Both the position numbers and the translations under genes were made by a program. Under the pieces are notes generated by a model, which was given only the letters and a program-made list of their open reading frames with translations, did no database searches and was not told the DNA's origin. From Candidatus Altimarinota bacterium (GTDB taxonomy: Bacteria; Patescibacteriota; Gracilibacteria; Absconditabacterales; Absconditicoccaceae), in contig JALUXR010000055.1 of NCBI GenBank assembly GCA_027013285.1, positions 1-48,269 on the forward strand: 48,269 nt of DNA. The letters run 5' to 3'. The stretch's first letter is position 1. Every line of letters begins with the position of its first letter. Below, piece after piece: positions 496-43,084 of this stretch.

Positions 496-2517
496 ATGAG
501 AAAGTTAGCTTTAATTTTGATTTCAGTATTTACATTAAATATTTTTTTGAACACATTAGTTTTTTGAGAAAATCTAGATGAACTTATAAAACAACATGAA
601 CAAAAAATAGAGAAACAAAAAAAACTTCAAAAAGAAAAAACTATGCAAGCTTGGATGAAACAAAAACAACAGATGATAAAAGATATTTATAATCAAACAA
701 ATATTGCTTATCTTATGGATTTAAATCAAGCAGCACAACAATTATCAAATATTTCTTCAAAATTGGAAGATACAAGTTTAAGTTATAGAAGTATAAAAAT
801 TCAAAAAAACAATATTGACAAAAAATATAAGGCAGTTCTCGAAGCTGCTAAACAAGTAATAATTAAATTAAGAGAGAAAGATCTACAAATGAAGAAAAAA
901 CTATTAAAAATTCAAATTTTATCAAAAGAATTAGAAAATTTAAAAAATCAAATATCAGAGATAAAAACAACTATCTATATTTCAAAACAACAAGTAGCTA
1001 AATATGTTTCAGTTTTGTATAAAATAAATAATGAATATTATAATTCTGTAGATAGTTTGGATGATATAAAGTTATTGTTAAAAAGTTCAAATATATCACA
1101 AACATTATCACAGGAAGATATTTTGAAATTACTATCATTGAAAACACAGGAATTACTTATAAAACTCGAAAAATCTCAAAAAATAAAAAGTAATTTTCTT
1201 AGGAAAATTTACATTACAAGGGTTGAATATATAAATACAGTTAATGAATATAAAACAGAGCTAACAATCTTAAATAATAAAAGAAAAATGTTGGTAGATT
1301 TACTAACTATGTTAAAAACTAATAAAAAAGCAGTAGATAAATATTACGATAGAATTTTTAAAAAGAGGGTAAATTTGAAGAAAAGACAAGTAGAATTACT
1401 TAATTCTATCAAAGATACTAAAAATTGAACTTGAAATTCTATCCATACAAAGGCCATAGATTTATCTGCTATACTAAAATATACTACTCAACCAGATGGT
1501 GATAAGTTTTTTAATTGGCCTTCAAGAGATTATAGAAAGATTACTGCATATTTTCATGATAAAAATTATTTTAAAAAATTTGGTTGGCAACATGATGGTA
1601 TAGACATAGCTATGCCTCAATGAACACCTATTTATGCACCTGCAGCTGGTTATGTTTATAAAGTTGTAGATAATAATTCAACTTATTATAATTATATAGT
1701 TATAGTTCATAATTATTGATATATTTCTATTTATGGTCATATTTCAAAAGCTTTGGTTAAAAAATGACAAATTGTAAAAAGAGGGCAGATTATAGCTTTG
1801 TCAGGTGGAGAGAAATGAACTAGATGATCTTGAAAGATGTCTACTTGACCACATTTGCATTTTGAATTATATAAAAATTGACAACATATAGATCCTTTAT
1901 CTGTTTTGGACTTATCAGTTTATCCAAATAAACAAGATGTTCCTGAGAAATGGAGACTTAAATATATCAAAGATTCTTTGACTAGAAAAGTTGATTTGTC
2001 AAATATAAGATATTATCCAAAATGACTTATTCATAAACAAAGAGAACAATTATTTCTTAGAAGAGCTGCAAGTTGATTTAGTAATCTTACAGGTTGGGTA
2101 AGTAAATGAAAACAATTATGAATAGATCCAGATGTTGCAATATGTATTGGGTATGCAGAAAGTTGATTAGGGCACAATATGTCTAGTCCAAATAATGTTT
2201 GAAATGTTTGAAATAATGACAGATGAGATAGAGTTTGATTTGCAACTCCGCAAGATTGAATAAATGCTATTTATTATGCCTTAAATAATAAATACTTATC
2301 AAAATATTTTACAATAGACAGATTATCAAGATATTGAAACAAGGATAGTCATATTTATTCATCTTCATCATATAATTGGTATAAAAATGTAGTTAAGTGT
2401 CTTACAATTATAAAATGATATCCGATAAATGAATTATATCCATTTAGAATATTATCAAACAGTGAAAAAAGAAAATTAGCAAAAATAAAGAATATTAAAT
2501 TAGCTAATAAAAAATAG
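496..2517 (+). CDS. secreted coiled-coil M23/LytM peptidoglycan endopeptidase with C-terminal glucosaminidase/muramidase-like region
   Basis: ATG 496, TAG 2515-2517; track ORF 643-1428 is only its coiled-coil part. Signal-like N-terminus MRKLALILISVFTLNIFL. M23 motifs HDGIDIAMPQGTPIYAPAAGYV and GPHLHFELYKNGQHIDP, with several G encoded by TGA. The C-terminal IGYAESGLGHNM..NVGNVGN resembles glucosaminidase/FlgJ-type domains. Confidence 0.85.
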
Positions 2518-6458: not shown

Positions 6459-8360
6459 ATGTTTTATAATATTAAATTAATTAAAATGAAAGTATTACCA
6501 GAAGTTATAAATCTTTATAAAGAAACTTTTGCTCCTTTGAAAAATATGTTTGATGAATTTAAGAAAACTTGAAAAATAAATATAATTATAACTGATTTTT
6601 TGAATGAATTAGGTTTGAAAGAAAATGAAAAAACAATTTATGTAGCATGTGAAAGAATTGCAAATTTAAAAACACCTATTTTAAAATCTTATTTAGATGA
6701 ATCTGATAAAAAAGTAGAAGAAAATATTAAAACTTTAAAAGTAGGTATTCCAAATACATTACAAGATAAACAAAAAATACTTCAAAAAGCATATATTTTT
6801 ACATCAAATTTATATACTGAATATTTTCAAATATTTATTGAAAATGTAAAAGAAAAAAATTTATTAGATGATTTTTATATTACTTTATTAGAATGAAGTT
6901 TAGAAGTTGCAAATGTTTTTAATGATTTTTATTTTGTTTGGTCAGAATATATAGAAAAACAAAATGATATCTTAGATAAAATGTTTTGAAATGATAGTGA
7001 GAAAATAATGACTTATTTAAAAGAAAAGAATTTGTTAGAAAAAGATGAAAATAGAAATTATACCGATAGATCATATACTGTTTTGAAATGATGAATAATG
7101 TTTTCTTATGCACAAGTTTTCCCAAATCAAATAAATAAAATTTCACAAGCTATAGATGATTTTGTAGAAAATTTACAAGATAAAAAAAATAAAGAAAAAC
7201 AGGATATTATAAATTATTTACAAGCTATTAAAGAAGCTTATTTGGAAACTGATACTACAAAACTTTTGAGAAAATGGGAAAAGGTAGATGAATTATGGAT
7301 GCAAATTAAGTGACCTTTTCAAATAGTTCATCCTATGGAATATTATGATGATAAATATAGAAAAGCAGTTCAACCTGAATTTGATATTAGGATTTTGGAT
7401 ACTGAAACATTACAGTCAAATGTTCAACAAGATGTATCTTTTATGTTTGATGAATTATTTAGTAAATTTAATAAAGAAAAATATGAGGAAATTTATAATT
7501 TCTCAAAAGAAAGTTTTTCTCGTGTTTTATTGTTTGTATCTGAACCAGTAATCTATGGAGGTGGTTATATGAACTGACTTTTTTCTGCACAAGTAGTTCC
7601 AAATGATGAAAAAATTAGTGAAAAGTTTGGTAAAAAGATATTTGCTTTCCCAAATAAAGTAAGAGCTGAACAACAAAAAGCTCCTTTAAAAAAACATACA
7701 GTTTTAACTTTTGATAAAGATATTATTGAAGAATATAAAGATATTTTGAATGATTCACAAACTTATTATAAAATTTACGATATAGAAACTATATGACATG
7801 AGTTTGGGCACACACTTTGGATGGGAAATGAAACAGAAGTGAAGATGAATTTTAAAACTTGAAATTTTAAAAATATAGAAGAATGGAAAGCAACAACTTG
7901 ATGATTGGTGGCTTATTTTTATAAAGTTCAGACTCAATTATGAGAGTCCGGACTTGAACAAGAACTTTCTGAATCTGATAAAAAATTGATGTTAATGCAC
8001 TTTAGAAGAAGTGTAGCTTTGATGGAACGGAAAAATTTTGATGAGGTTGCTCCATATTATAATGAAGGACTTATACATTTGGATATCTTGTTTAAATCAG
8101 ATGTTTTACAAATAAAAGACAATAAAGTTTACTTTAATCTAACAGTTCAAACTTATAAAAAATTAAAAGATTTATATTTGAAAACTTATAAAAAACTTAT
8201 TGAAACTTATTTGAATAAAAAAGATGCAGGAGAATTTTTGTTTGATTACATAATTACAGATAAAAATAATTATAACTTACCAAAAGATGATAATCTTAGA
8301 AAATTTGTAATACATTATCAAGAAATATTTGAAAAATATGGAAATGAAGTAGTTAAATAA
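6459..8360 (+). CDS. putative zinc metallopeptidase (HEFGH motif)
   Basis: Track ORFs 6600-6896, 7098-7313, 7335-7577 and 7986-8360 are in one frame and join via TGA codons. Motif ETIGHEFGHTLW, with EEWKATTGG about 25 residues downstream. Start ATG 6459 (alternative ATG 6486). Stop TAA 8358-8360. Confidence 0.8.
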
Positions 8361-8810
8361 AAGTAGCTAAATATCTTTAATTTATTTAATATTAGAAATA
8401 TGGAATTTCTTGTGCATGTGATACCTTGAAGTAAACAAATTTTAGTTAAAAAAGATGGTAAAGATTTGTTGACAAATAGAGATATTTATAAAGTAAAACT
8501 TACTGCGAAACCTATAAATGGAGAAGCAAATAAACAACTTATAGAAGTGTTGGTGGATTTCTTTAAGACAAAAAGAAGATTTATAGAAATTGATAAATGA
8601 GCTAGTAGTAGGTTAAAACTTGTAAAAATAATTGAAAATTAAAAATACTTTTGTACAATTAAATCAATTTTAATTTTTTATTAAAATATTATGAAAACAC
8701 CTTATATTTGGAAAAATGGAGAGTTTATAGCTTGGGATGATGCTTTGGACCATAATATTACTCATTCTTTACATTATGGTAGTTGAGTTTTTGAATGAAT
8801 TAGATTTTAT
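8355..8810 (+). repeat. 456-bp direct repeat, left copy
   Basis: Base-for-base identical to 10757-11212 by line-by-line comparison (offset 2402). Confidence 0.95.
8400..8642 (+). CDS. DUF167 (YggU-like) family protein, copy 1
   Basis: MEFLVHVIPGSKQILVKKDGKDLLTNRDIYKVKLTAKPINGEANKQLIEVLVDFFKTKRRFIEIDKGASSRLKLVKIIEN, the typical DUF167 pattern. Lies inside the repeat. Confidence 0.8.
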
Positions 8811-8970: not shown

Positions 8971-10737
8971 ATGAAAGAACATATAGAAAAGGAAGTACAA
9001 AATAATAAAAGTATTACCCCTGTTGAAACAGACCTTTTTAATTCACTTGCTATACCTGAAAATTTTTCAGATTTTTTAAATAGACTGAAAAAATATACTC
9101 AAAACTTAGATTGTCATAATACAAAAACTTGTTTAGAAAATATATTATCCATTTTCTCAAATATGAAAATACCATCATATAGTAATATAATTCAAAAAAT
9201 TGGGAATTTTGATAATAAAAATGGAAATATATTCGAAATAATTAAAAGTAAAGAAATTGAAAATTTTGAATGAGAAGTAGTAAGCATAAGTTTTGATGCA
9301 ATATGAAGTACAAGTTTAGATTCAAGTACTTTGAAAGAATTTATGAAACAAGTTATTTATACAGTAAATATTTTTGAAAATCTGTATAAAAATGAGTGAT
9401 TACAAATGTTTTCTATAAATTGAGATGAAATTCATATTTGATTTTTTTCAAACAAATTAACACAAAAAGAAAAAGTAGAAATTTTCCAATTATTGTCTAT
9501 GATTTTACATTTGATAACTTGAAAAGGATTTCACCATGTAATGTTAGCTTGGGAAAAAGAAAAATGAGAAGGCATCACTGCTGTTTTCCAAGAAAATATT
9601 GCAAATACTATTGTAAGTGAATCTTATAGTTGAGAATACAAAAAAAGCAAAAAATCCAAACTTCCAAATTATATTCAAACAAAATTACTGAAAGAAAAAG
9701 AGCAAATATCACAACTACTATATGGTTTAAATATAAAACCATATTTAAAAATAGATTTTAATAAACTTGAAGAAAATATAGATTATCTTGAAGAAAATAA
9801 TATTCCACTACACAGATTACTAACAAAAATAATCATAAATTATATTTCAAATAACTTACAAAACAAAGAAGTCAATTTATTAGAAAATAAAGAAATAGAA
9901 GTAGTTGAATTTAACAAATGAAAAAAAATAATTTCTTATTGAGAAAAAAATAGTAAGTTATATTTAGTTTTAAATTGAAATGTAGAAATCCAAATTTTTT
10001 GAAATCCAAATTTAGCAAAATATTCTTCTTGAAAAACAATTTTATGAGAAATGTCTATGTATGGAAGACCTGCTAATGCAAATGTAATAGCAGATAGTAA
10101 AGTGAAAACTTTAAAAATAAATAAAAAATTTATAGAAGATATGCTTGTCTGAAATATAATAATAGATGCAAGGTTTACAAAACAATTGGATATATTGTTA
10201 AAAAAATATATTAAGTGAAGAGAAAATTACAATTTACTAATAAATCAATATTTCCAAGAATTAATTAACTATTGAAATAAACCTTTAAGTGAAATATTTG
10301 AAATTTGGAACTTATTTTTGGAAATTTTGCTAAAATCTGAAAAAACATATAAAAAAGCAGAAAATAAACCATTAACTTATAAATGAAAAGAAAACGATAA
10401 ATTATACTTTTTGAGGAAATGAACTATTGTAAGAAAAAATGAAATAAAATTTACATTAGAAAATGATGAATTAATATGAGAAAACACATTTTTACAATAT
10501 ATTAGCTGAAATACAAATCCAAAAGCAAATGCTAGTATAGAAATTGTTGATTGAAAAATAATAGAAATGGATTTTGGGGAAGTTATAAAAGTTTTAGAAA
10601 AAGAGAAAATGGATATAAGTAAATTCCAAGAAGTTTTGGAAAAGATAGCAAAATTAAGAGAAAATAACAATGATTTTGTTTGATTTTGATGAAAAAAAGT
10701 TTTTTCTGGAACTAGTCCTTTCAAAAAAGCAGCCTAA
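8971..10737 (+). CDS. 588-aa protein: nucleotidyl-cyclase-like palm region followed by two cyclic-nucleotide-binding-like domains
   Basis: Verified codon by codon from ATG 8971 to TAA 10735-10737, with 25 in-frame TGA by my count. Only the first 100 aa appear in the track. Motifs: VVSISFDAIGSTSL (9277-9318), INGDEIHIGFF (9415-9447), ENIANTIVSES, GEMSMYGRPANANVIA (10045-10092), GENTFL..NPKANASIEIV (10477-10548). Confidence 0.85.
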
Positions 10738-10756: not shown

Positions 10757-11212
10757 AAATAAAAGTAGCTAAATATCTTTAATTTATTTAATATTAGAAA
10801 TATGGAATTTCTTGTGCATGTGATACCTTGAAGTAAACAAATTTTAGTTAAAAAAGATGGTAAAGATTTGTTGACAAATAGAGATATTTATAAAGTAAAA
10901 CTTACTGCGAAACCTATAAATGGAGAAGCAAATAAACAACTTATAGAAGTGTTGGTGGATTTCTTTAAGACAAAAAGAAGATTTATAGAAATTGATAAAT
11001 GAGCTAGTAGTAGGTTAAAACTTGTAAAAATAATTGAAAATTAAAAATACTTTTGTACAATTAAATCAATTTTAATTTTTTATTAAAATATTATGAAAAC
11101 ACCTTATATTTGGAAAAATGGAGAGTTTATAGCTTGGGATGATGCTTTGGACCATAATATTACTCATTCTTTACATTATGGTAGTTGAGTTTTTGAATGA
11201 ATTAGATTTTAT
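10757..11212 (+). repeat. 456-bp direct repeat, right copy
   Basis: Identical to 8355-8810. Confidence 0.95.
10802..11044 (+). CDS. DUF167 (YggU-like) family protein, copy 2
   Basis: Identical to 8400-8642. Confidence 0.8.
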
Positions 11213-13501: not shown

Positions 13502-15328
13502 ATGAAAAAAATATTGTTAGTATCTTTATGAATTAGTCTAGTTTTATCTTGATGTAGTTCAAAAGAGCAAGTAATAAAAAAAAACATACAAACACAGGAT
13601 GTAAAACAAACTTGTAATAAATCTTTTGTTGTGTGAAGTTGAAAAAATCAAGTTTATAATTTACAAGCAAAAGTAGTTTCTTCAAACATAAAAAATATTA
13701 CTTCAAATAATGCTTGAGTTATTTCTTACTTGAATTGTACTCCTTGACAAAAAGTAAATTCAAAAACTTTGCTAGCAAAAATAATTCCTGATTGGTCAAG
13801 TCCTACTATAAAAAATTTGATTAACCAGAAAAAAGCTATTCAAACTCAGTTAGAGAATACAAAGAATATTTTTGTTAGTACAAAGTCTAACTTTTCTTCC
13901 CAATTAAATTCTTTAGTTATACAAAAAACTAATTTAGAAAGTCAGATTAAAATATTAAATCAGAATTTAATTAAATTAAATAATCAAAAGAAATATTGAA
14001 TTAATGATCTTTGAGAACAATTAAGTAACTTACAAACTCAATTGAAAAATTTAAAAAAATCAAAAACTAACTTAGAACAAAGTAAGCAAGCAGATATAGA
14101 AAAAATTAAATTATCTATTTTGAATACAAAAAACAGTATTTCATCTTCCATCAAAAATGACTTATTTAGAATTGATGAGATATTTTGAATATCTGATGCA
14201 AATAAACATAAAAATGATGCTTATAAAAATTATTTGAGTGCAAAGAATACTACACTTAAAGATAAAATTAAAAATGATTGGAGAAAAATATCTTCACAAA
14301 AAATAAATAATTTATCAAATAAAGAATTTTCTAATTATATTCAACAAGTTGATTTGCTTGTTCAAGATGTAAAACAGGCAATTAAAAATTCAGTAGCTTC
14401 AAGAAGTTTTTCACAAACACAAATAAATACATACTATAATGAATTTAATTCTTATGATTTAGCTTTAATTTCTTCAAAAACTAAGTTAGATGATTTAATT
14501 CAAAATTATACTACAATTGTTAATAATTATGATACACAAATAATTTCATTAGAAACACAGATAGATACTATAAAATCTAATATAAAAAACATTAAAGATA
14601 ATAAGATAGATTCTTATTCTTCAAGTATAGATATTCAAATAAATACAACTAAAACTCAATTAGATAATACAAATTCAAGTTTAAAAAATATAGAAAATCA
14701 AATTAAATCTCTAGATGATCAAGAAAATATTCAGCTTAAACAATTAGAAAATCAAATTTCTAGTTTAAAATCAAATTTATCTCAAATTAATGTAAATTTA
14801 GCACCACAAAATATTTATGCAGGTGTAAATTGAAAAATTAAAAACAAAAAAGCCGATAAATGAAATAAAGTATGACCAAACGGCTTGATCTGTCAGATAG
14901 TTCCAAATAAGAGTAGTTTAAAATTACAAATTTATGGAGATTTAGGAGTTGGAAGAGATTTAGGAGAAGTTGAATTTAAAGATAACAATTGAAAAAATTG
15001 TAAATTAAAAATAGTTAGTAAATTACCTTACCAAGATCCAATTACTCAAAATAATATTTATGAAACAGAAGATAATATTAATTGTAATATTCAAGAATGA
15101 GAAATTTTGTCTGTAAAATATAATAAAGAAAACAATAAAGTTATAAATTGAAATAAAAAAATATTTATACCATTAGATTTTGTAGTAAATAAACTTACTG
15201 GACAGTTTGTAAAAGAAAAGATAGCTAGCTGAGATATTCAAGAAATTCCTGTTAAACTTTGAAATATAGACTGAACAAATGTAGAGATTTTATCTTGATT
15301 AAAAATATGAGATAAGATTTGTAGATAG
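13502..15328 (+). CDS. lipoprotein, HlyD/RND membrane-fusion (periplasmic adaptor)-like with long coiled coil
   Basis: Signal peptide plus lipobox LVLSGCSS, whose Gly is TGA 13550-13552. Track ORFs 13769-13999 and 14234-14833 are in frame. Has a Q/N/S-rich coiled coil and a C-terminal beta-rich part. Lies upstream of the RND pump. Stop TAG 15326-15328. Confidence 0.8.
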
Positions 15329-22485: not shown

Positions 22486-22511
22486 GCTAGGAAATTACTC
22501 CTAGCTTTTTT
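22486..22511. terminator. hairpin terminator between convergent genes
   Basis: GCTAGGA-AATTAC-TCCTAGC followed by T6. Confidence 0.65.
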
Positions 22512-22614: not shown

Positions 22615-25218
22615 TTACAGGCTTTCCCATACAGCTTTTTTTTGTCCATCTACTTCCTTTATTTCCAAAAGTTTTACTCTTATGGTATCTCAAATATTAT
22701 AGTAATCTTTCCAATTTATTCATTCTGGTAAGTTTATGTTTTTTTTATGTAAAAGTCCTTCGTATTCATCAGCTAATACAAATAATCCATAATTAAATTT
22801 TAATTTTACAATTCACTCAAAAATATCTCAAATATCATTATTTTCTTTTTGTCATTTTGAATTTATTTCAGAATCTTTAGATCTTGTTATAAGTTTAGTA
22901 TGACTAAGTAGTTTTCATTTTCAATTATCTTTAAAATCTTTTTTAATATCTAAATTTCTCTTTTTTTTAGTTTGTTCTGTATTTTCTTTATGCTTTTCAA
23001 TATTTTTCTTATTTTGAGTTTTTATGCTTTCTCAAATTTCCTTTTCTACATCTTGCTTTGGTTTCGTATATTTAGATTTAGATAGTTGTTTTATTTCTTC
23101 GATAAATTTATTATTTTTTATGTTTTCATCTAAAATAGGTTGAGTAGCTATTCCAAAAACATCTGTAGAAGTCCCATCTATCATTATTTTTGTGTATGCT
23201 TTGAATTTTGGAATAGAGCTTATGTCGTTTGCAGTGATTTGATTTTTAAATTGTTTAGATAATATCTCAGCATCTTCATTTCAACTATTGAAAACTACAA
23301 GATTTCAGATATTTCCAAAAATAGCATTTCTTACATCTTTATCTATCTGACTAATGTATTGGTTTGCAACAGCAAGTGACAATTTATATTTTCTAGCTTC
23401 AGATAAAATTACAGAAAATGATTCAGTGGCAAAATTTTGAAATTCGTCTATGTAGAGTGTAAATTCTTTTCTTTTATTCATAGGTAAATTTGCTCTTTTC
23501 ATAGTTTCTACTTGTATTTGACTTACGATAAATGAACCTATCATAGCAGAATTATCTTCACCAATAAGACCTTTTGATAAATTTACAAGCAAAATTTTAT
23601 TGTTTTGCATTATTTCAGCTATATTGATAGTTGACTTAGTTTGTCAGAAAATATTTCTTATGATAGGAGAAGAAACAAATTGTCCTACTTTGTTCATAAT
23701 TGGACTTATGGCTTCAGATGCAAATCTTTCTGACCGTTTTGTAAATTCTTTTTCCCAGAAATCTTTAATTATAGGGTCTGCAGTTTGTGTTAATACTTCT
23801 TTCCTAAAATCTTTGTCTGTAAGCATTTTCATAATATGTAAGAAATTTGCTTGGTCATACTCAGATAAGGCTAAAAGTGTATTTCTGAAAATATATTCAA
23901 GTCTTGGTCCCCAGCTATTTCAGTATAATTTTTTAAAAATAGACAATACTGTTGAAACGGATAAATCTTTATTATAATTTTTTCATTTTTCAAAAACATT
24001 GAATCCAACAGGATTTTCTGTATCTGAAACATTGAAATATATTATGTCATTTTTTCTATTTTCAGGTATTACTTGCAAAATATTTTCTGCTAAATCTCCG
24101 TGAGGGTCTATCAAAGCAAGTCATCTGCCTCTTTCTAAATCAGACAAAACCATATTTGAAAGCAATGTAGATTTACCAACTCAAGTTTTTCAAATAATAT
24201 ATACATGACGAGCTTTGTCCTCTTGTTTTAGTCAAACAACTTGTTTTTCATCTGCCCAATCTATTTTTCACAAAACAGTGATATCTTCATCTTTCGATGG
24301 TAAATTTGAAGGTGGAGCAAGTCTTTTGTAGTTGATATATTTGATTCATTTGATGTTTTCTTCTTCTGTTGGAACATGAAATATTTTTGAAAATTCATTT
24401 ATTTCAACTGATGAAAAGACCTCTTCGTTCTGTGTATATAATTCTGTTTCTGTAGCTTCGTTTATGTTCTTAAAAAATAACTTATCAAAATTGTTATAGC
24501 CACCTACTCATATTGAAAGTGCAGTTCATTTGATTCAAGTTTCTATCTTTTGTTTTTTGCTTACTTTTGTTATTTTAGGTTCTACTCAAGTAAAAACTCT
24601 TACAAAAAAATAGTAAATTCAAAATAAAAATAATTTTATTCATTTCCAGATAAGCTCAAATAAACTTTCATAATGTATTTCTCAAGAAGAATTTAATATT
24701 ATTGAATATTTTATGATTCATTTGTTATTTGAAGGAATATCTTTGAATAAGAAAAATGTTTCTTTGAAAAAAGTTTTAGATTTTTTTAACTGAATTTTAT
24801 CATCTCATATTGCATGAATATAAGTTTTTAACTCTATTTTTTCATTAAAATCTATTTTTTGTATTTTTGAAGAAGGAAAGTAATTATAAAAATTATTTAC
24901 GAACTTATTTTCAAAATTTGTAGGAAAAGAAATAATTAGCTTAACTGAAGTATTGTTTCAGATAGTATAGAAATTTATTCTTTTTGAAAAATAAGAAAAA
25001 TTCTTTAGCAATTTTGCAAAAGTTTTGTAATCAAAATTATTTTTGTGATATGGTATTATTTCATAATAACTATTTTCTAACTCAACTATATTTTCAGTTT
25101 TTTTTATTTGAGATTTTTTGGATTCTTTTTTTTGTTTTTTCTTCTTGTTTGAATCCAAAAAATCAACTATTTGCTCAGCTAATATTTCAATTTTTTTAAA
25201 CATAAAATTTTTAAACAT
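22615..25218 (-). CDS. VirD4/TraD-like type IV coupling-protein-family ATPase with C-terminal S1 (OB-fold) domain
   Basis: 867 aa, reconstructed codon by codon. Track ORFs 24958-25218, 23644-23832 and 23305-23610 share its frame. Has a TM segment LIWKGIKLFLFGIYYFFV. Walker A GKTGVGKST (24166-24192). Other motifs: ALIDPHGDL, SWGPRLEYIFRN, Walker B-like TLYIDEFQNF, ARKYKLSLAVANQ. The last 71 aa (22618-22830), GDIFEGIVKLKFNYGLFVLADEYEGLLH...IGDTIRVKLLEIK, match the S1 domain pattern. Confidence 0.85.
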
Positions 25219-25282
25219 ATAAAACTTTCACTGAAATTATATATTTTTTTGTATAAATTAAAAATACTTATATTGACATAAT

Positions 25283-25307
25283 AAAAAAACCTATCATTAG
25301 GATAGGT
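25283..25307 (-). terminator. rho-independent terminator after the pilin gene
   Basis: Plus-strand A7, then ACCTATC-ATTAG-GATAGGT. On the minus strand this is a hairpin followed by U7. Confidence 0.65.
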
Positions 25308-25332
25308 AATTACTGTATGTGTTTAATATTAT

Positions 25333-25749
25333 TTATGGAGTATTTCAAGCTGATCATGCAGTACTTGTATTTGAGCTCATAAAACTAAATACTAAATTAA
25401 TAATCATAGCAGAAGCTCAGATAAGTATAAGTCATATAACTGCTTGTTTTACAATAGTAAATCATTTTTTGTATTTACCATCATCACCAGCTGCAGTAAT
25501 CATTTGAAAACCACCCCAAATAAGAATTATTATAGAAATAAGACCTAAGAATCATAATATCCAATTTACAGCAGTTTGTACAAATGTTATAAATCATGTG
25601 TTTCATGTTCATCATGTTTGTCATCATACTACTCAAATAGTTGTAGTATTTTGTTGAGTAAATCAATTTGCAGTAGTAATCATAGGTGCTGCTATAGTAG
25701 TAGCTCACACAATAGCACTTCAAATTAATATTCAAACTTTTTTATTCAT
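25333..25749 (-). CDS. TrbC/VirB2-like (T4SS-type) pilin
   Basis: 138 aa; frame checked. Signal peptide MNKKVGILIGSAIVGATTIAAP, a Gly/Thr-rich linker, then two hydrophobic helices: WILGFLGLISIIILIWGGFQMITAAGDDGKYKKGFTIVKQAVIGLILIGASAMIINLV. Track ORF 25484-25735 is the wrong frame. Confidence 0.65.
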
Positions 25750-25929: not shown

Positions 25930-26004
25930 GCCGAAGTAGCTCAGTGGTAGAGCAGAGGCCTGAAAAGCCTTGTGTCGGCAGTTCGATCCTGCCCTTCGGC
26001 ACCA
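25930..26004 (+). tRNA. tRNA-Phe (anticodon GAA), CCA encoded
   Basis: Acceptor GCCGAAG/CTTCGGC, D arm AGCTCAGTGGTAGAGC, anticodon loop CTGAAAA, T arm GGCAGTTCGATCCTGCC, 3' ACCA. Confidence 0.92.
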
Positions 26005-26015
26005 CTTATTATTAT

Positions 26016-26089
26016 CGGGGTGTAGCTCAGATGGCTAGAGTGTCTGGTTTGGGACCAGAAGGTCGCGAGTTCGAGTCCCGCTACCCCGA
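26016..26089 (+). tRNA. tRNA-Pro (anticodon TGG), CCA not encoded
   Basis: Acceptor CGGGGTG/TACCCCG, anticodon arm TCTGG-TTTGGGA-CCAGA, T arm GCGAGTTCGAGTCCCGC. Confidence 0.9.
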
Positions 26090-26099
26090 GACTATTTAT

Positions 26100-26176
26100 G
26101 GGCATGTGGCTTAGTTGGTTAAAGCACACGACTGATAATCGTGAGATCGATGGTTCGAGTCCATCTATGCCCACCA
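26100..26176 (+). tRNA. tRNA-Ile (anticodon GAT), CCA encoded
   Basis: Acceptor GGGCATG/TATGCCC, anticodon arm CACGA-CTGATAA-TCGTG, T arm GATGGTTCGAGTCCATC, 3' ACCA. Confidence 0.9.
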
Positions 26177-41683: not shown

Positions 41684-43084
41684 ATGTTTAAAAAAAGTAT
41701 AATTTATTTATTTTTGGTTTTATTTTCTTTTCCATTTTTGGGATTTGCTTGATATTGTGATTGAGATATTTCTTGAGCTGGAGAAAAACCTCCTATTTGT
41801 TATTCTTCTCCAGAAATTGTAGATAAGTATTTACAGGATATGGTTTATGTAATTTCTCTGGTAAGTAATGCTAAATCTAATAGTAGTGGGCTGTGAGCTT
41901 TATGAAAAAAGGTTTGAGATACGTGAATTTGATCTTTGGCTGTTGCGACTATGTTTGCTTCAAACTGATTATGAAATTTTTTCCAGAATTTTATTATTAT
42001 TTTTAAATGACCAGATATAGTTAGAGATCGGGTAAAAATAACAAATTTTCAACAATATATTACAAAAAATGCATTAGAATTATCTTCTAAATGAATACTA
42101 AATCAAAATATATCAAATCTAACTGCAATAAAAAATTATATAAAATTAAAAGATAGTTTTATAATTGAACCTGATTGAATTACTACCTATAAAGATTTAT
42201 TTAAATATTTATGGCAAAATCAAATTCTTTTTGAACAAATTTATTATGAAAAAGTTGTGTTAAAAGATAGTGTAAATGCTATAAATCACAATGTTATTTC
42301 TACACTTTTAAGTAATTGATATAAATTTCCTATAAATTCTAATGCTTTATTTTATGTAGGAAATAAATTTGATATTTATAATAAATATAATTGTAATACT
42401 TTTTTTGATGATTTTAAAAAAAATTTGAAACATATAATTTGCTCAGTTTGATGAAAAGAGCTTTCAAAAGCTAATGATAGATTTAAATGTAATTACAATA
42501 GATTATTATATGTTTTAGAATTGTGACCTAAACCTAAAAACCAATGTTGATCTGTAGCAATAGCAAAATGGATACCATTATCTAAAAGGGTAAAATCTAA
42601 AGTTTCTGTAGAATGAATTTGAACTTTATCTTATAATAATGAGTGAATCCAGAATTGATGGACTGAAGATACTCAAGCTTTAAATCAAATGTCAAAGGAC
42701 TTAAAAAAATATTCTTGATTGATAAACTGAATAAAAGAATTGTGATCTGAGTTAAATCCTTCTAATTGGAAAGCATATAAAACTTTTACATGAAATGTTT
42801 CACCAGCAGATTATGCAATAGCAAAGCAAACTGATTTTATAAATTATAACTTAAATGCTGTTATAAGTGATTATAATGAAGTAAAAAATATAACTAATTG
42901 ATTAGAACCTTGAAATGCTACACATTGAATTACTACATTATTTCCACAAATAAGCCAGCAAATAGATGAAATAAGACAAAAGATTTGAAAATCAGTAAGT
43001 GAGAAAGACACAATTTATAAAAATTTAGAAAAAACTTGTCAAAATCAATCTCCACAAAAATGAAATTGTTCTTATTCAAAATAA
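41684..43084 (+). CDS. secreted Cys- and Gly-rich hypothetical protein (466 aa)
   Basis: Signal peptide MFKKSIIYLFLVLFSFPFLGFA. The frame was checked line by line from ATG 41684 to TAA 43082-43084, with 31 in-frame TGA by my count. Completely absent from the ORF track. Confidence 0.8.

What the first reader, a model, noticed from the sequence alone, without database searches (positions are those of the whole stretch)
22615..25749. Minimal T4SS-like pair: VirB2-type pilin next to a coupling-protein ATPase that ends in an S1 domain
The 138-aa protein (25333-25749) has the signal peptide plus two-helix layout of TrbC/VirB2 pilins. The adjacent 867-aa protein has a TM segment, Walker A GKTGVGKST, DPHGDL, and Walker B-like YIDEFQNF with ARKYKLSLAVANQ, as in VirD4/TraD/TrwB coupling proteins. 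Its last 71 residues match the S1 OB-fold pattern (GxxxxGxVxxxxxxGxFVxxxxxxEGLxH...GDxxxVKxxxxD). I know of no described coupling protein with a fused single-stranded nucleic-acid-binding S1 module. Such a module would fit direct handling of ssDNA or RNA during uptake or export, which is relevant for an episymbiont that scavenges nucleic acids. No VirB4, VirB6 or relaxase is in the window.
Basis: partly seen in the sequence, partly recalled or inferred. Interest (0 to 1): 0.65.

Follow-up and report, generated by a model that had tools for sequence, protein, structure and literature searches.

The report
Orphan coupling-type ATPase with S1 tail
A tiny symbiotic (CPR) bacterium encodes a conjugation-type motor ATPase ending in a single-strand nucleic-acid-binding S1 domain, next to a secretion-pilus subunit gene; both identifications hold and the S1 fusion is a lineage-wide trait I found no paper describing, but the two genes are not a self-contained secretion system.

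Summary
Read with code 25 (UGA=Gly), 22615-25218(-) is an intact 867-aa ATPase. It matches Pfam TrwB_AAD_bind, TraG-D_C and DUF87 above their cut-offs and ends in a real S1 domain. 25333-25749(-) is a PF18895 VirB2-like T4SS pilin.

The "minimal T4SS pair" reading does not hold.
- The two genes are adjacent only in the closest relative.
- A terminator hairpin lies between them.
- No pilin lies within 10 kb of the ATPase in any of the 80 fetched loci from other genomes.
- The ATPase has no N-terminal membrane anchor.

The ATPase belongs to the "orphan" T4CP-like family already counted in about 96% of Patescibacteria genomes, usually far from virB4.

What I found that appears undescribed:
- The S1 tail is conserved in about 45 close homologues and 17 GTDB species genomes.
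- Other clades carry a basic tail or a Zn ribbon at the same position.
- The S1 clade has lost the N-terminal TM helix that other clades have.
- The N-terminal domain weakly resembles the VirB4 N-domain.

Best reading: a T4CP-derived hexameric nucleic-acid motor whose tethered S1 domains capture single strands. Whether it docks on a T4SS is unresolved.

Verdict: a new variant of a known kind, of moderate interest.

The parts
22615..25218 (-). 867-aa T4CP-like ATPase gene (code 25; the true start may be the second ATG at 25203, which is where homologues begin)
   Evidence: Intact ORF with 29 UGA=Gly codons. Pfam hits. 2817 homologues across Patescibacteria.
24349..25218 (-). N-terminal domain (residues 1-290): an amphipathic helix (MFKKIEILAEQIVDFL, 25156-25203) followed by an alpha/beta domain. 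It aligns with the DUF8128 region of relatives.
   Evidence: Alignments A1 and A3. AF2 models of the A. praedator orthologue. Foldseek best hits are the TrwK/VirB4 N-domain region: E about 1e-3, TMq 0.41-0.49.
24583..24639 (-). Borderline hydrophobic stretch IKLFLFGIYYFFVRVFTGV (residues 194-212).
   Evidence: Kyte-Doolittle 1.62. Not conserved in the orthologues. It has low pLDDT in the model.
23083..24234 (-). T4CP-type P-loop ATPase core with an all-alpha insertion (residues 329-712). Walker A is at 24166-24192, DPHGDL at 24091-24108, Walker B at 23431-23457, and SEARKY..ANQY at 23356-23403.
   Evidence: Pfam TrwB_AAD_bind, TraG-D_C and DUF87. Invariant motifs. TrwB superposes with TMt 0.62-0.69 and rmsd 4-5.5 A. 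Against PDB sequences the family profile ranks TrwB, then DotL, then HerA.
22834..23082 (-). Lys-rich linker (residues 713-795; 22 of 83 residues are Lys)
   Evidence: Composition. In the orthologue model it forms helices followed by a segment with pLDDT below 50. Its length varies between homologues.
22618..22833 (-). C-terminal S1 (OB-fold) domain, residues 796-867
   Evidence: Pfam S1, 33.5 bits against GA 22. PDB sequence hits to ribosomal protein S1 (E 1.4e-9), GSP13, PNPase and Rrp5. The orthologue model shows b1-b2-b3-helix-b4-b5 at pLDDT about 89. The signature G.VKLK.NYGLFV..EGLLHK..IGD.I.VK is conserved in about 40 homologues.
25333..25749 (-). 138-aa VirB2-like T4SS pilin gene (signal-like helix 25666-25749; PF18895 core 25390-25587)
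   Evidence: PF18895, 40.7 bits against GA 26.6. NCBIfam Mbov_0395 pilin-like, 30.8 bits, below its cut-off of 40. Three hydrophobic helices. 84 homologues.
25289..25307 (-). Terminator-like hairpin plus T-run between the pilin stop codon and the ATPase start codon
   Evidence: Scan found 3 such sites in 3.7 kb against 0.6 expected. Folding energy -11.3 kcal/mol, z -2.6. L005 has a hairpin with a different stem at the same position, followed by the same TTTTTTTATTATGTCAA.
22486..22505 (.). Bidirectional terminator-like hairpin between the convergent ATPase and AGOG glycosylase genes

Best explanation
The 867-aa gene is the Absconditabacteria/Gracilibacteria form of the chromosomal 'orphan' VirD4/TrwB-type ATPase that almost all Patescibacteria carry away from virB4.

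Shown:
- It has four modules. First, an N-terminal amphipathic helix plus an alpha/beta domain (DUF8128-type, weakly like the VirB4 N-domain). Second, a T4CP-type P-loop core with an all-alpha insertion and intact catalytic motifs. Third, a Lys-rich linker of about 80 residues. Fourth, a genuine S1 OB fold.
- The S1 tail is conserved across a whole clade.
- Sister clades carry a basic tail or a CxxC zinc ribbon at the same position.
- The S1 clade lacks the N-terminal TM helix that other clades have.

Inferred:
- Like other FtsK/HerA/VirD4-superfamily ATPases, it forms a hexameric ring that uses ATP to move nucleic acid.
- Its six tethered S1 domains capture single-stranded nucleic acid (ssDNA or RNA) and hold it at the ring. 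This would replace the relaxosome-recognition tails of plasmid coupling proteins.
- It acts at the cytoplasmic side and does not strictly need a T4SS.

The neighbouring 138-aa gene is a real VirB2-like pilin of the dispersed patescibacterial T4SS gene set. It is transcribed largely on its own. Its position beside the ATPase is a recent, genus-level rearrangement and not an operon.
For: Identity and architecture.

Clade-wide S1:
- The tail sits at the extreme C-terminus in about 45 of the top 120 homologues, with its signature residues conserved.
- It is present in 17 GTDB species-representative genomes.
- Precomputed PF00575 is recorded on the A. praedator protein and others.

Alternative nucleic-acid-binding tails: K/R-rich tails in most other clades, and a CxxC-x17-CxxC ribbon in P0102, P0104 and P0117.

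Anchor loss: none of the S1-clade proteins P0001-P0042 has an N-terminal hydrophobic helix, whereas 47 of 101 full-length homologues do, including most outside the S1 clade.

Orphan status, from PMC12102498:
- T4CP homologues occur in 2,918 of 3,035 genomes against 2,417 for VirB4.
- Only 148 of 5,713 lie near virB4.
- The homologue is dispensable in S. epibionticum, although the T4SS itself is essential.
- The S. epibionticum T4SS cluster has no recognisable coupling protein (PMC10633639).

Not a pair.

Strong core conservation, 45-50% identity across CPR classes, fits a universal substrate.
Against: - There is no biochemical evidence for a hexamer, for ATPase activity or for nucleic-acid binding.
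- S1 domains usually bind RNA, whereas T4CPs handle ssDNA or proteins. The substrate is therefore open.
- Loss of the TM helix does not exclude docking through a partner such as a VirB3- or VirB4-like protein. The N-terminal helix could be such a docking element.
- The pilin is adjacent in two related genomes, which could still reflect co-function.
- Whether this genome has VirB4 at all could not be checked.
Confidence: 0.55

Rival explanations
1. It is a genuine coupling protein of this lineage's dispersed T4SS. The ATPase docks on VirB4 and the channel components encoded elsewhere. Its S1 arms recruit relaxase-free single-stranded nucleic acid for export to, or import from, the host through a pilus built from the neighbouring pilin.
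For: - The core is T4CP-type.
- The pilin is a real T4SS pilin and is adjacent in two genomes.
- T4SS genes are known to be scattered in class Gracilibacteria: only 4.7% of VirB3 homologues lie near virB4 (PMC12102498).
- Relaxases are absent from most patescibacterial T4SSs, so a direct nucleic-acid-binding module would make sense.
- The archaeal Ced system shows that T4SS-like DNA import can work without a relaxase (PMC11868833).
Against: - T4CP homologues are found in about 500 more genomes than VirB4.
- The homologue is dispensable in S. epibionticum, where the T4SS is essential.
- The S1 clade has no membrane anchor.
- Linkage to the pilin is not conserved, and a terminator separates the two genes.
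- No T4SS gene is a conserved neighbour in 17 examined loci.
Confidence: 0.25
2. It is a cytoplasmic RNA motor. The S1 domain points to RNA, so the T4CP-derived ring would have been re-used as a Rho-like or degradosome-like RNA translocase or remodeller, unrelated to secretion.
For: - The best S1 matches are RNA-binding proteins: ribosomal S1, GSP13/CvfD, PNPase and Rrp5.
- The S1-clade proteins appear soluble.
- The gene has housekeeping neighbours: tRNAs and the tuf-S10 operon.
Against: - Sister clades are membrane-anchored and have non-specific basic tails.
- No RNA-metabolism gene is a conserved neighbour.
- OB/S1 folds also bind ssDNA.
- Nothing tested here separates RNA from DNA.
Confidence: 0.1
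3. It is a HerA/FtsK-type DNA repair or segregation ATPase, or a defence-system ATPase (MADS Mad8 or HerA-type), and has nothing to do with T4SS families.
For: - Pfam DUF87/HerA scores 30.8 bits, above its cut-off.
- NCBI names the A. praedator protein 'helicase HerA domain-containing'.
- PADLOC mad8 scores 59.9 bits, with weak HerA hits as well.
- HerA structures appear among the top Foldseek hits.
- One paralogue in another genome lies beside DivIC and mur genes.
Against: - HerA superposes poorly (rmsd 14-17 A, TMt 0.4-0.5), while TrwB superposes well (4-5.5 A, TMt 0.62-0.69).
- Against PDB sequences the family profile ranks TrwB (E 5.9e-4), then DotL (0.039), then HerA (0.15), with no FtsK.
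- FtsK_SpoIIIE matches only the P-loop region and scores below its cut-off.
- The modelled N-domain's best PDB matches are VirB4 and not HerA.
- No NurA gene and no other mad gene lies nearby.
- The MADS HMMs were built from HHpred alignments against PDB, so the mad8 hit is generic.
Confidence: 0.07
4. It is a self-sufficient two-gene 'minimal T4SS', in which the pilin and the ATPase alone form an uptake or export device.
For: The genes are adjacent on the same strand here and in L005.
Against: - Every known T4SS needs VirB4, and the published patescibacterial systems have it.
- The adjacency is not conserved.
- A terminator lies between the genes.
- The ATPase has no membrane anchor.
Confidence: 0.03

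Closest known systems
TrwB / VirD4 / TraD / DotL type IV coupling proteins (Pfam PF10412, PF02534, PF12696)
   Same: It has a P-loop core with an all-alpha insertion, a Walker A followed by DPxGD, and Walker B hhhDE. TrwB is the only significant PDB sequence hit and the best structural superposition. It also has a variable C-terminal extension that could recruit substrate, as TraD's tail does for TraM.
   Different: - It has no N-terminal TM domain.
- It has a 290-residue N-terminal alpha/beta domain that T4CPs lack.
- It has an S1 domain at the C-terminus.
- It is chromosomal, with no relaxase, oriT or virB4 nearby.
- Its sequence is far more conserved across phylum-level groups than plasmid T4CPs are (my own knowledge; not measured here).
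Patescibacterial 'orphan' T4CP homologues (Quinonero-Coronel et al. 2025, PMC12102498)
   Same: This is the family the window protein falls in. It is near-universal in CPR, has about two copies per genome, usually lies far from virB4, and is suggested there to be 'exapted for other functions'.
   Different: In the text I read (sections 12-14 and term searches), that paper counts the homologues. It does not describe their domain architecture, the S1, Zn-ribbon or basic C-terminal tails, the DUF8128 N-domain, or the loss of the anchor in the Absconditabacteria-type clade.
Archaeal Ced DNA-import ATPases CedB/CedD (PMC11868833)
   Same: The layout is a TM helix, then a VirB4-like N-domain, then a HerA/VirB4-superfamily ATPase. 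They work with VirB2-like two-helix pilins (CedA1) and move DNA without a relaxase. NCBIfam CedD gives a weak hit (E 3.3e-7).
   Different: The CedD hit covers only the P-loop region and falls far below its cut-off. The Ced ATPases are of HerA/VirB4 type, whereas this core is TrwB-like with an all-alpha domain. No S1 is reported for Ced.
VirB2/TrbC-type T4SS pilins of Patescibacteria (PF18895) and Mycoplasma ICE pilin-like proteins (NCBIfam NF045849)
   Same: The 138-aa protein has a signal peptide and two hydrophobic helices joined by a short charged loop, and it scores above the Pfam cut-off.
   Different: It is a single gene rather than an array, and it is not beside virB4. It has a Gly/Thr-rich spacer after the signal peptide. 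The NCBIfam score is below its cut-off.
FtsK gamma domain and Rho (functional analogies only)
   Same: Both are hexameric ring motors that carry a small nucleic-acid-recognition domain: a winged helix in FtsK-gamma and an OB fold in Rho.
   Different: There is no sequence or family relationship. The analogy comes from my own knowledge and was not tested here.

Membership tests
VirD4/TrwB-type coupling protein (T4CP) | P-loop NTPase core of the FtsK/HerA/VirD4 superfamily with intact Walker A and Walker B | tested here: met
   GKTGVGKST 343-351 and LYIDEFQNF 588-596. K344, T345, D591 and E592 are invariant in 42 sequences.
VirD4/TrwB-type coupling protein (T4CP) | T4CP-specific sequence families score above their curated cut-offs, including the all-alpha domain | tested here: met
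   TrwB_AAD_bind 23.8 bits (GA 20.5) and TraG-D_C 28.2 bits (GA 22). Relatives also hit T4SS-DNA_transf. The margins are small, and the NCBIfam TraD models score far below their cut-offs.
VirD4/TrwB-type coupling protein (T4CP) | The fold superposes on a solved T4CP better than on VirB4, HerA or FtsK | tested here: met
   Tested on the orthologue model. TrwB: TMt 0.62-0.69, rmsd 4-5.5 A over about 455 columns. VirB4 and HerA: rmsd 14-17 A. The sequence profile ranks TrwB, then DotL, then HerA.
VirD4/TrwB-type coupling protein (T4CP) | N-terminal transmembrane domain anchoring the ring at the membrane | tested here: not met
   There is no N-terminal hydrophobic helix, only one borderline internal stretch. 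No S1-clade homologue has an N-terminal hydrophobic helix, whereas 47 of 101 full-length homologues do. From my own knowledge, some accepted T4CPs also lack a TMD.
VirD4/TrwB-type coupling protein (T4CP) | Genetic association with a T4SS (virB4) and/or a relaxase | tested here: not met
   None among the 19 other window ORFs scanned. No T4SS gene is a conserved neighbour in 17 loci. The literature reports only 148 of 5,713 homologues near virB4.
VirD4/TrwB-type coupling protein (T4CP) | Hexamer that hands substrate to the T4SS channel | not testable with these tools
   This needs biochemistry or cryo-EM.
S1 domain (PF00575) | Profile score above the curated cut-off | tested here: met
   33.5 bits against GA 22, E 5.5e-8, residues 796-856. 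PDB sequence hits to ribosomal S1, GSP13 and PNPase.
S1 domain (PF00575) | Five-stranded OB beta-barrel (b1-b2-b3-helix-b4-b5) | tested here: met
   AF2 model of the A. praedator orthologue: E751-760, E763-768, E771-776, H788-791, E797-808, E811-817, pLDDT about 89. The two tails are closely similar (alignment). The window protein itself could not be submitted.
S1 domain (PF00575) | Binds single-stranded nucleic acid | not testable with these tools
   The residues of the S1 signature (NYG-LFV, LLHK, GD..VK) are conserved. Binding itself needs an assay.
T4SS pilin, VirB2-like (PF18895) | Profile score above the curated cut-off | tested here: met
   40.7 bits against GA 26.6, E 2.5e-10.
T4SS pilin, VirB2-like (PF18895) | Signal peptide plus two hydrophobic helices joined by a short charged loop | tested here: met
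   Hydropathy peaks at 6-24, 59-77 and 103-121. The loop is AAGDDGKYKKG.
T4SS pilin, VirB2-like (PF18895) | Encoded with virB4 and other T4SS genes | tested here: not met
   Not in this window. Orthologues lie between folD and a GIY-YIG gene. Scattering of T4SS genes is reported for class Gracilibacteria.
HerA helicase | HerA central domain together with an N-terminal HAS barrel and a NurA partner (my own knowledge of the family) | tested here: not met
   DUF87 scores above its cut-off. However, the N-domain's best PDB matches are VirB4 and none is HerA, HerA superposes poorly, and no nuclease gene is adjacent.
VirB4 | VirB4 N-terminal domain plus a VirB4-type ATPase | tested here: inconclusive
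   The N-domain model's best PDB hits are all TrwK/VirB4, but only marginally: E 9e-4 to 5e-3, TMq 0.41-0.49, rmsd about 8 A. No VirB4 Pfam family and no VirB4 PDB sequence is hit by the core.
MADS defence system (Mad8) | mad8 encoded within a multi-gene mad operon that includes a methylase | tested here: not met
   The mad8 HMM hit scores 59.9 bits, but no other mad-like gene lies nearby. The HMM was built from PDB homologues.

The most novel reading that the evidence does not exclude
The S1-tailed, anchor-less clade would be a T4CP-derived motor that works on RNA rather than DNA. It could be a Rho-like or degradosome-like cytoplasmic RNA translocase. More radically, it could be the receptor that feeds RNA into, or receives RNA from, the envelope-spanning T4SS of a predatory episymbiont. 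As far as I know, either case would be the first RNA-handling member of the coupling-protein family.
Probability: 0.12. Interest if true: 0.8.

Novelty: new variant of a known kind. Interest (0 to 1): 0.45.

Why it matters
Patescibacteria make up a large share of bacterial diversity. They cannot make nucleotides, and they depend on a T4SS whose substrate is unknown and which lacks a relaxase.

Their near-universal T4CP-like ATPases have so far only been counted. At one fixed position, different clades attach an S1 domain, a zinc ribbon or a basic tail. This gives a concrete, testable hint that the family handles nucleic acid directly.

The cultured Ca. Absconditicoccus praedator carries the S1 version, so the hint can be tested experimentally. 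If the motor proves to move host-derived or self ssDNA or RNA, it would bear on how these episymbionts acquire or exchange nucleic acids.

The practical lesson is smaller. Public translations of this lineage read UGA as Trp, which hides domains such as S1 from precomputed annotation.

Tried and rejected
I modelled the A. praedator orthologue P0026 instead and its N-domain separately.
- I searched for the pilin next to the ATPase in relatives. tblastn with code 25 and a pilin HMM run against six-frame ORFs of 89 loci found it only in L005. The HMM is narrow, so very divergent PF18895 members could have been missed.
- Clustering of neighbour genes across 17 loci found no conserved T4SS neighbour. 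One sub-clade with long paralogues has conserved neighbours that, by eye, look like a degenerate PriA, PilC, CorA and FolD. I did not run these against Pfam.
- Defence reading: the PADLOC mad8 and HerA hits were rejected. There is no system context, and the MADS HMMs derive from HHpred alignments against PDB.
- FtsK-substitute idea: the literature search on FtsK in CPR was unproductive. FtsK_SpoIIIE hits only the P-loop region and scores below its cut-off. This idea remains untested.
- The supplement of PMC12102498 is stored truncated and holds no A. praedator rows. I could not read off the T4SS gene content of that genome.
- The representative-library search with the S1-tail profile was swamped by multi-S1 ribosomal proteins. 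It gave no clean census. It showed only that several more proteins of 850-1080 aa end in this type of tail.
- Sequencing-run look-up: only DNA metagenomes from hydrothermal vents were listed. No RNA run was listed and a kind=rna search was not tried, so expression was not examined.
- Protein comparison cannot translate code-25 DNA. I did that comparison in Python instead.


Full report
**Observation**

Table-11 ORF calling breaks the region into pieces. UGA falls on invariant glycines of EF-Tu, uL2 and SecY, and on the Walker A of the ATPase itself. The window (GC about 24%) therefore uses code 25. This is the code of the Gracilibacteria/Absconditabacteria branch of the Patescibacteria.

Under code 25, 22615-25218(-) is one 867-aa ORF with 29 UGA codons. 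25333-25749(-) is one 138-aa ORF with 17 UGA codons.

**The small protein**

- It scores 40.7 bits on Pfam PF18895 (T4SS pilin) against a gathering cut-off (GA) of 26.6.
- It scores 30.8 bits on the NCBIfam model for Mycoplasma ICE pilin-like proteins, below that model's cut-off of 40.
- Hydropathy shows a signal-like helix and two hydrophobic helices joined by the charged loop AAGDDGKYKKG.
- It has 84 homologues, nearly all annotated PF18895.
- It is the only such gene in the window.
- The pilin identification stands.

**The large protein: ATPase core**

- Pfam gives TrwB_AAD_bind (23.8 bits, GA 20.5), TraG-D_C (28.2, GA 22) and DUF87/HerA (30.8, GA 23.2). FtsK_SpoIIIE matches only the P-loop region and scores below its cut-off.
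- A profile of 42 family members finds TrwB as the only significant PDB sequence (E 5.9e-4). DotL (0.039) and HerA (0.15) follow. No VirB4 or FtsK appears.
I therefore modelled the 41%-identical orthologue from the cultured Ca. Absconditicoccus praedator (P0026) with a 47-sequence alignment. The model has mean pLDDT 88.8 and pTM 0.78.
- Foldseek against the PDB returns TrwB with the best superposition: TMt 0.62-0.69 and rmsd 4-5.5 A over about 455 columns. VirB4/TrwK and HerA have similar E-values but rmsd of 14-17 A. Cag-beta and DotL also appear.
- The core is therefore T4CP-type and not HerA- or FtsK-type.
- The PADLOC mad8 hit (59.9 bits) does not change this. The MADS HMMs were built from HHpred alignments against the PDB, and no other mad gene is present.

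**The large protein: S1 tail**

- Pfam S1 scores 33.5 bits against GA 22 (E 5.5e-8) on residues 796-856.
- A PDB sequence search with the tail alone finds ribosomal protein S1 (E 1.4e-9), GSP13, PNPase and Rrp5.
- In the orthologue model the tail is a b1-b2-b3-helix-b4-b5 barrel at pLDDT about 89.
- The signature G.VKLK.NYGLFV..EGLLHK...IGD.I.VK is conserved in about 40 homologues.
The S1 call is sound.
- The tail is joined to the core by an 83-residue linker with 22 lysines.

**The large protein: N-terminus and membrane**

It is missing in A. praedator.

Among the 120 listed homologues, 47 of 101 full-length proteins start with a hydrophobic helix. In the examples I read, basic residues follow it, which suggests (my inference) an N-out/C-in anchor. 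None of the S1-clade proteins P0001-P0042 does. They all start with a conserved amphipathic helix of the form M.kkIE.lAE.iVDy.

The roughly 290-residue N-domain aligns with the region that relatives have annotated as DUF8128. Modelled alone it reaches pLDDT 79.7. Its best PDB matches are all TrwK/VirB4, but only marginally: E 9e-4 to 5e-3, TMq 0.41-0.49. The layout of anchor, VirB4-like N-domain and ATPase recalls the archaeal DNA-import ATPases CedB and CedD (PMC11868833).

**Distribution**

- The ATPase has 2817 homologues at E below 1e-5, from Absconditabacteria, Gracilibacteria, Peregrinibacteria and many other CPR groups. The core is 45-50% identical across these groups.
- The S1 tail sits at the extreme C-terminus in about 45 of the top 120 homologues.
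- It is present in 17 GTDB species-representative genomes.
- Precomputed PF00575 is already recorded for the A. praedator protein, which NCBI names "helicase HerA domain-containing".
- After the conserved SRERY..PRE.VEDKI.RWS helix, other clades carry a K/R-rich tail, a CxxC-x17-CxxC zinc ribbon (P0102, P0104, P0117), or an extra domain followed by S1 (P0034, P0036-41).
- Several of the examined genomes have two paralogues, one of about 830 aa and one of about 990 aa.
- Close homologues in the database are translated with UGA=Trp. This explains why their precomputed annotation lacks S1.

**Is it a pair?**

- The synteny tuf / pilin / ATPase / AGOG recurs only in L005, where the ATPase is 79% and the pilin 86% identical.
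- In assembly GCA_041694255.1 the ATPase (62% identical) is on one contig, and the 290 nt upstream of it show no pilin. The pilin orthologue (57% identical) is on another contig, between folD and a GIY-YIG gene. L009 shows the same pilin context.
- A. praedator has no pilin within 10 kb of the ATPase.
- None of the 80 fetched loci from other genomes has one either.
- No T4SS gene is a conserved neighbour in 17 loci.
- Between the pilin stop and the ATPase start lies a terminator-like hairpin with a T-run. The scan found 3 such sites in 3.7 kb against 0.6 expected by chance, and the fold has z -2.6.
- L005 has a hairpin with a different stem at the same place, followed by the same T-run. This argues that the hairpin is functional.
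- None of the 19 other window ORFs I scanned hits a VirB4, VirB6 or relaxase family.
- The two genes are thus neighbours by a recent rearrangement. They are probably not one transcription unit.

**Literature**

Quinonero-Coronel et al. 2025 (PMC12102498) report the following for Patescibacteria:
- VirB4 in 2,417 of 3,035 genomes.
- VirB2-like pilins in 1,948 assemblies.
- 5,713 VirD4-type T4CP homologues in 2,918 genomes, of which only 148 lie near virB4.
- Almost no relaxases.
- Scattered T4SS genes and undetected VirB6 in class Gracilibacteria.

Wang et al. 2023 (PMC10633639) found the T4SS cluster of that organism essential, but without a recognisable coupling protein or relaxase.

None of the best-ranked papers holding "coupling protein" or "T4CP" mentions an S1 domain.

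The general theme is therefore published. The architecture of these orphan ATPases is not described in what I could read.

**Mechanism: shown and inferred**

Shown:
- The four-module architecture.
- Intact catalytic motifs.
- Clade-wide conservation of S1.
- Replacement of S1 by other nucleic-acid-binding tails in sister clades.
- Loss of the anchor in the S1 clade.
- No conserved linkage to the pilin or to virB4.

Inferred:
- A hexameric ATP-driven ring, as in TrwB, FtsK and HerA.
- Six tethered S1 domains that capture single-stranded nucleic acid and hold it at the pore.
- This would be a relaxase-independent counterpart of TraD's relaxosome-binding tail.

T4CP homologues occur in about 500 more genomes than VirB4. 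The homologue is dispensable where the T4SS is essential, and the S1 clade looks soluble. I therefore lean towards a motor that does not strictly depend on a T4SS (confidence 0.55 for the overall statement).

Rivals:
- A true coupling protein of the dispersed T4SS (0.25).
- A cytoplasmic RNA motor (0.10).
- A HerA/FtsK or defence ATPase (0.07).
- A self-sufficient two-gene system (0.03).

**Verdict**

This is a new variant (S1-tailed, anchor-less, with a VirB4-like N-domain) of a known kind, the patescibacterial orphan T4CP-like ATPase. It lies beside an ordinary patescibacterial VirB2-like pilin gene.

Interest is moderate. The recurring nucleic-acid-binding tails turn a counted but uncharacterised, near-universal CPR family into a testable nucleic-acid-motor hypothesis, and a cultured organism is available for testing it.

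Noticed in passing
window 8355-8654 and 10757-11056: A perfect 300-nt direct repeat, spaced 2402 nt apart. It duplicates an identical 80-aa ORF (8400-8642 and 10802-11044) on both sides of the cNMP-binding-domain gene at 8971-10737. It could be a real duplication or an assembly artefact.
   Followed up: partly
whole window; database proteins P0001-P0025 and P0121 onwards: The window uses code 25 (UGA=Gly). Public translations of this lineage, including the stored translation of the window's own pilin (P0121, 88% identical to the code-25 translation), read UGA as Trp. This degrades precomputed Pfam annotation: S1 is missing on the closest homologues.
   Followed up: yes
window 496-2517 (+); L001 7937-9931: A 673-aa Peptidase_M23 protein. 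It is a full-length homologue (34% identity over 627 aa, E 3e-140) of the gene directly upstream of the A. praedator ATPase orthologue. In the window it lies 20 kb away from the ATPase.
   Followed up: partly
L014-L018, L021, L070 (GTDB loci): A second, longer paralogue (about 970-1200 aa) carries an extra domain between the ATPase core and S1. It has a conserved, divergently transcribed neighbour of about 250 aa that looks to me like a degenerate PriA. In some of these loci, genes that look like pilC and pilN/O lie upstream. The neighbours were not run against Pfam.
   Followed up: no
L006 3714-9487: A type I restriction-modification gene set (HsdM; a 372-aa ORF without a Pfam hit, possibly HsdS; HsdR) lies between the ATPase and the two genes that precede tuf in L004. 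It looks like an island insertion.
   Followed up: no
L002/L003 2561-4816 and 10001-12502: In this genome (protein labelled Candidatus Gracilibacteria by NCBI), two DUF8128 + T4CP-like paralogues lie 5 kb apart among MurL, Mur ligase and DivIC genes. This might hint at a cell-envelope or division context for the family.
   Followed up: no
window 25930-26176 (+): A tRNA-Phe(GAA), tRNA-Pro(UGG), tRNA-Ile(GAU) cluster lies directly upstream of tuf and the S10/spc ribosomal operon. It is transcribed divergently from the pilin gene.
   Followed up: no
window 41684-43084 (+) and 13502-15328 (+): Two large predicted secreted or lipoproteins have no Pfam hit. One is 466 aa and Cys-rich with a signal peptide. 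The other is 608 aa with a lipobox-like LSGC and an Asn/Ser/Lys-rich sequence.
   Followed up: no
window 6459-8360 (+): A 633-aa protein gives a very strong full-length match to DUF7897 (499.9 bits). It contains an HEFGH zinc-metalloprotease-like motif.
   Followed up: no
window 22615-25749: Near-identical DNA is found in hydrothermal-vent metagenomes from several studies (up to 90% of sampled 31-mers). This gives the likely habitat.
   Followed up: partly
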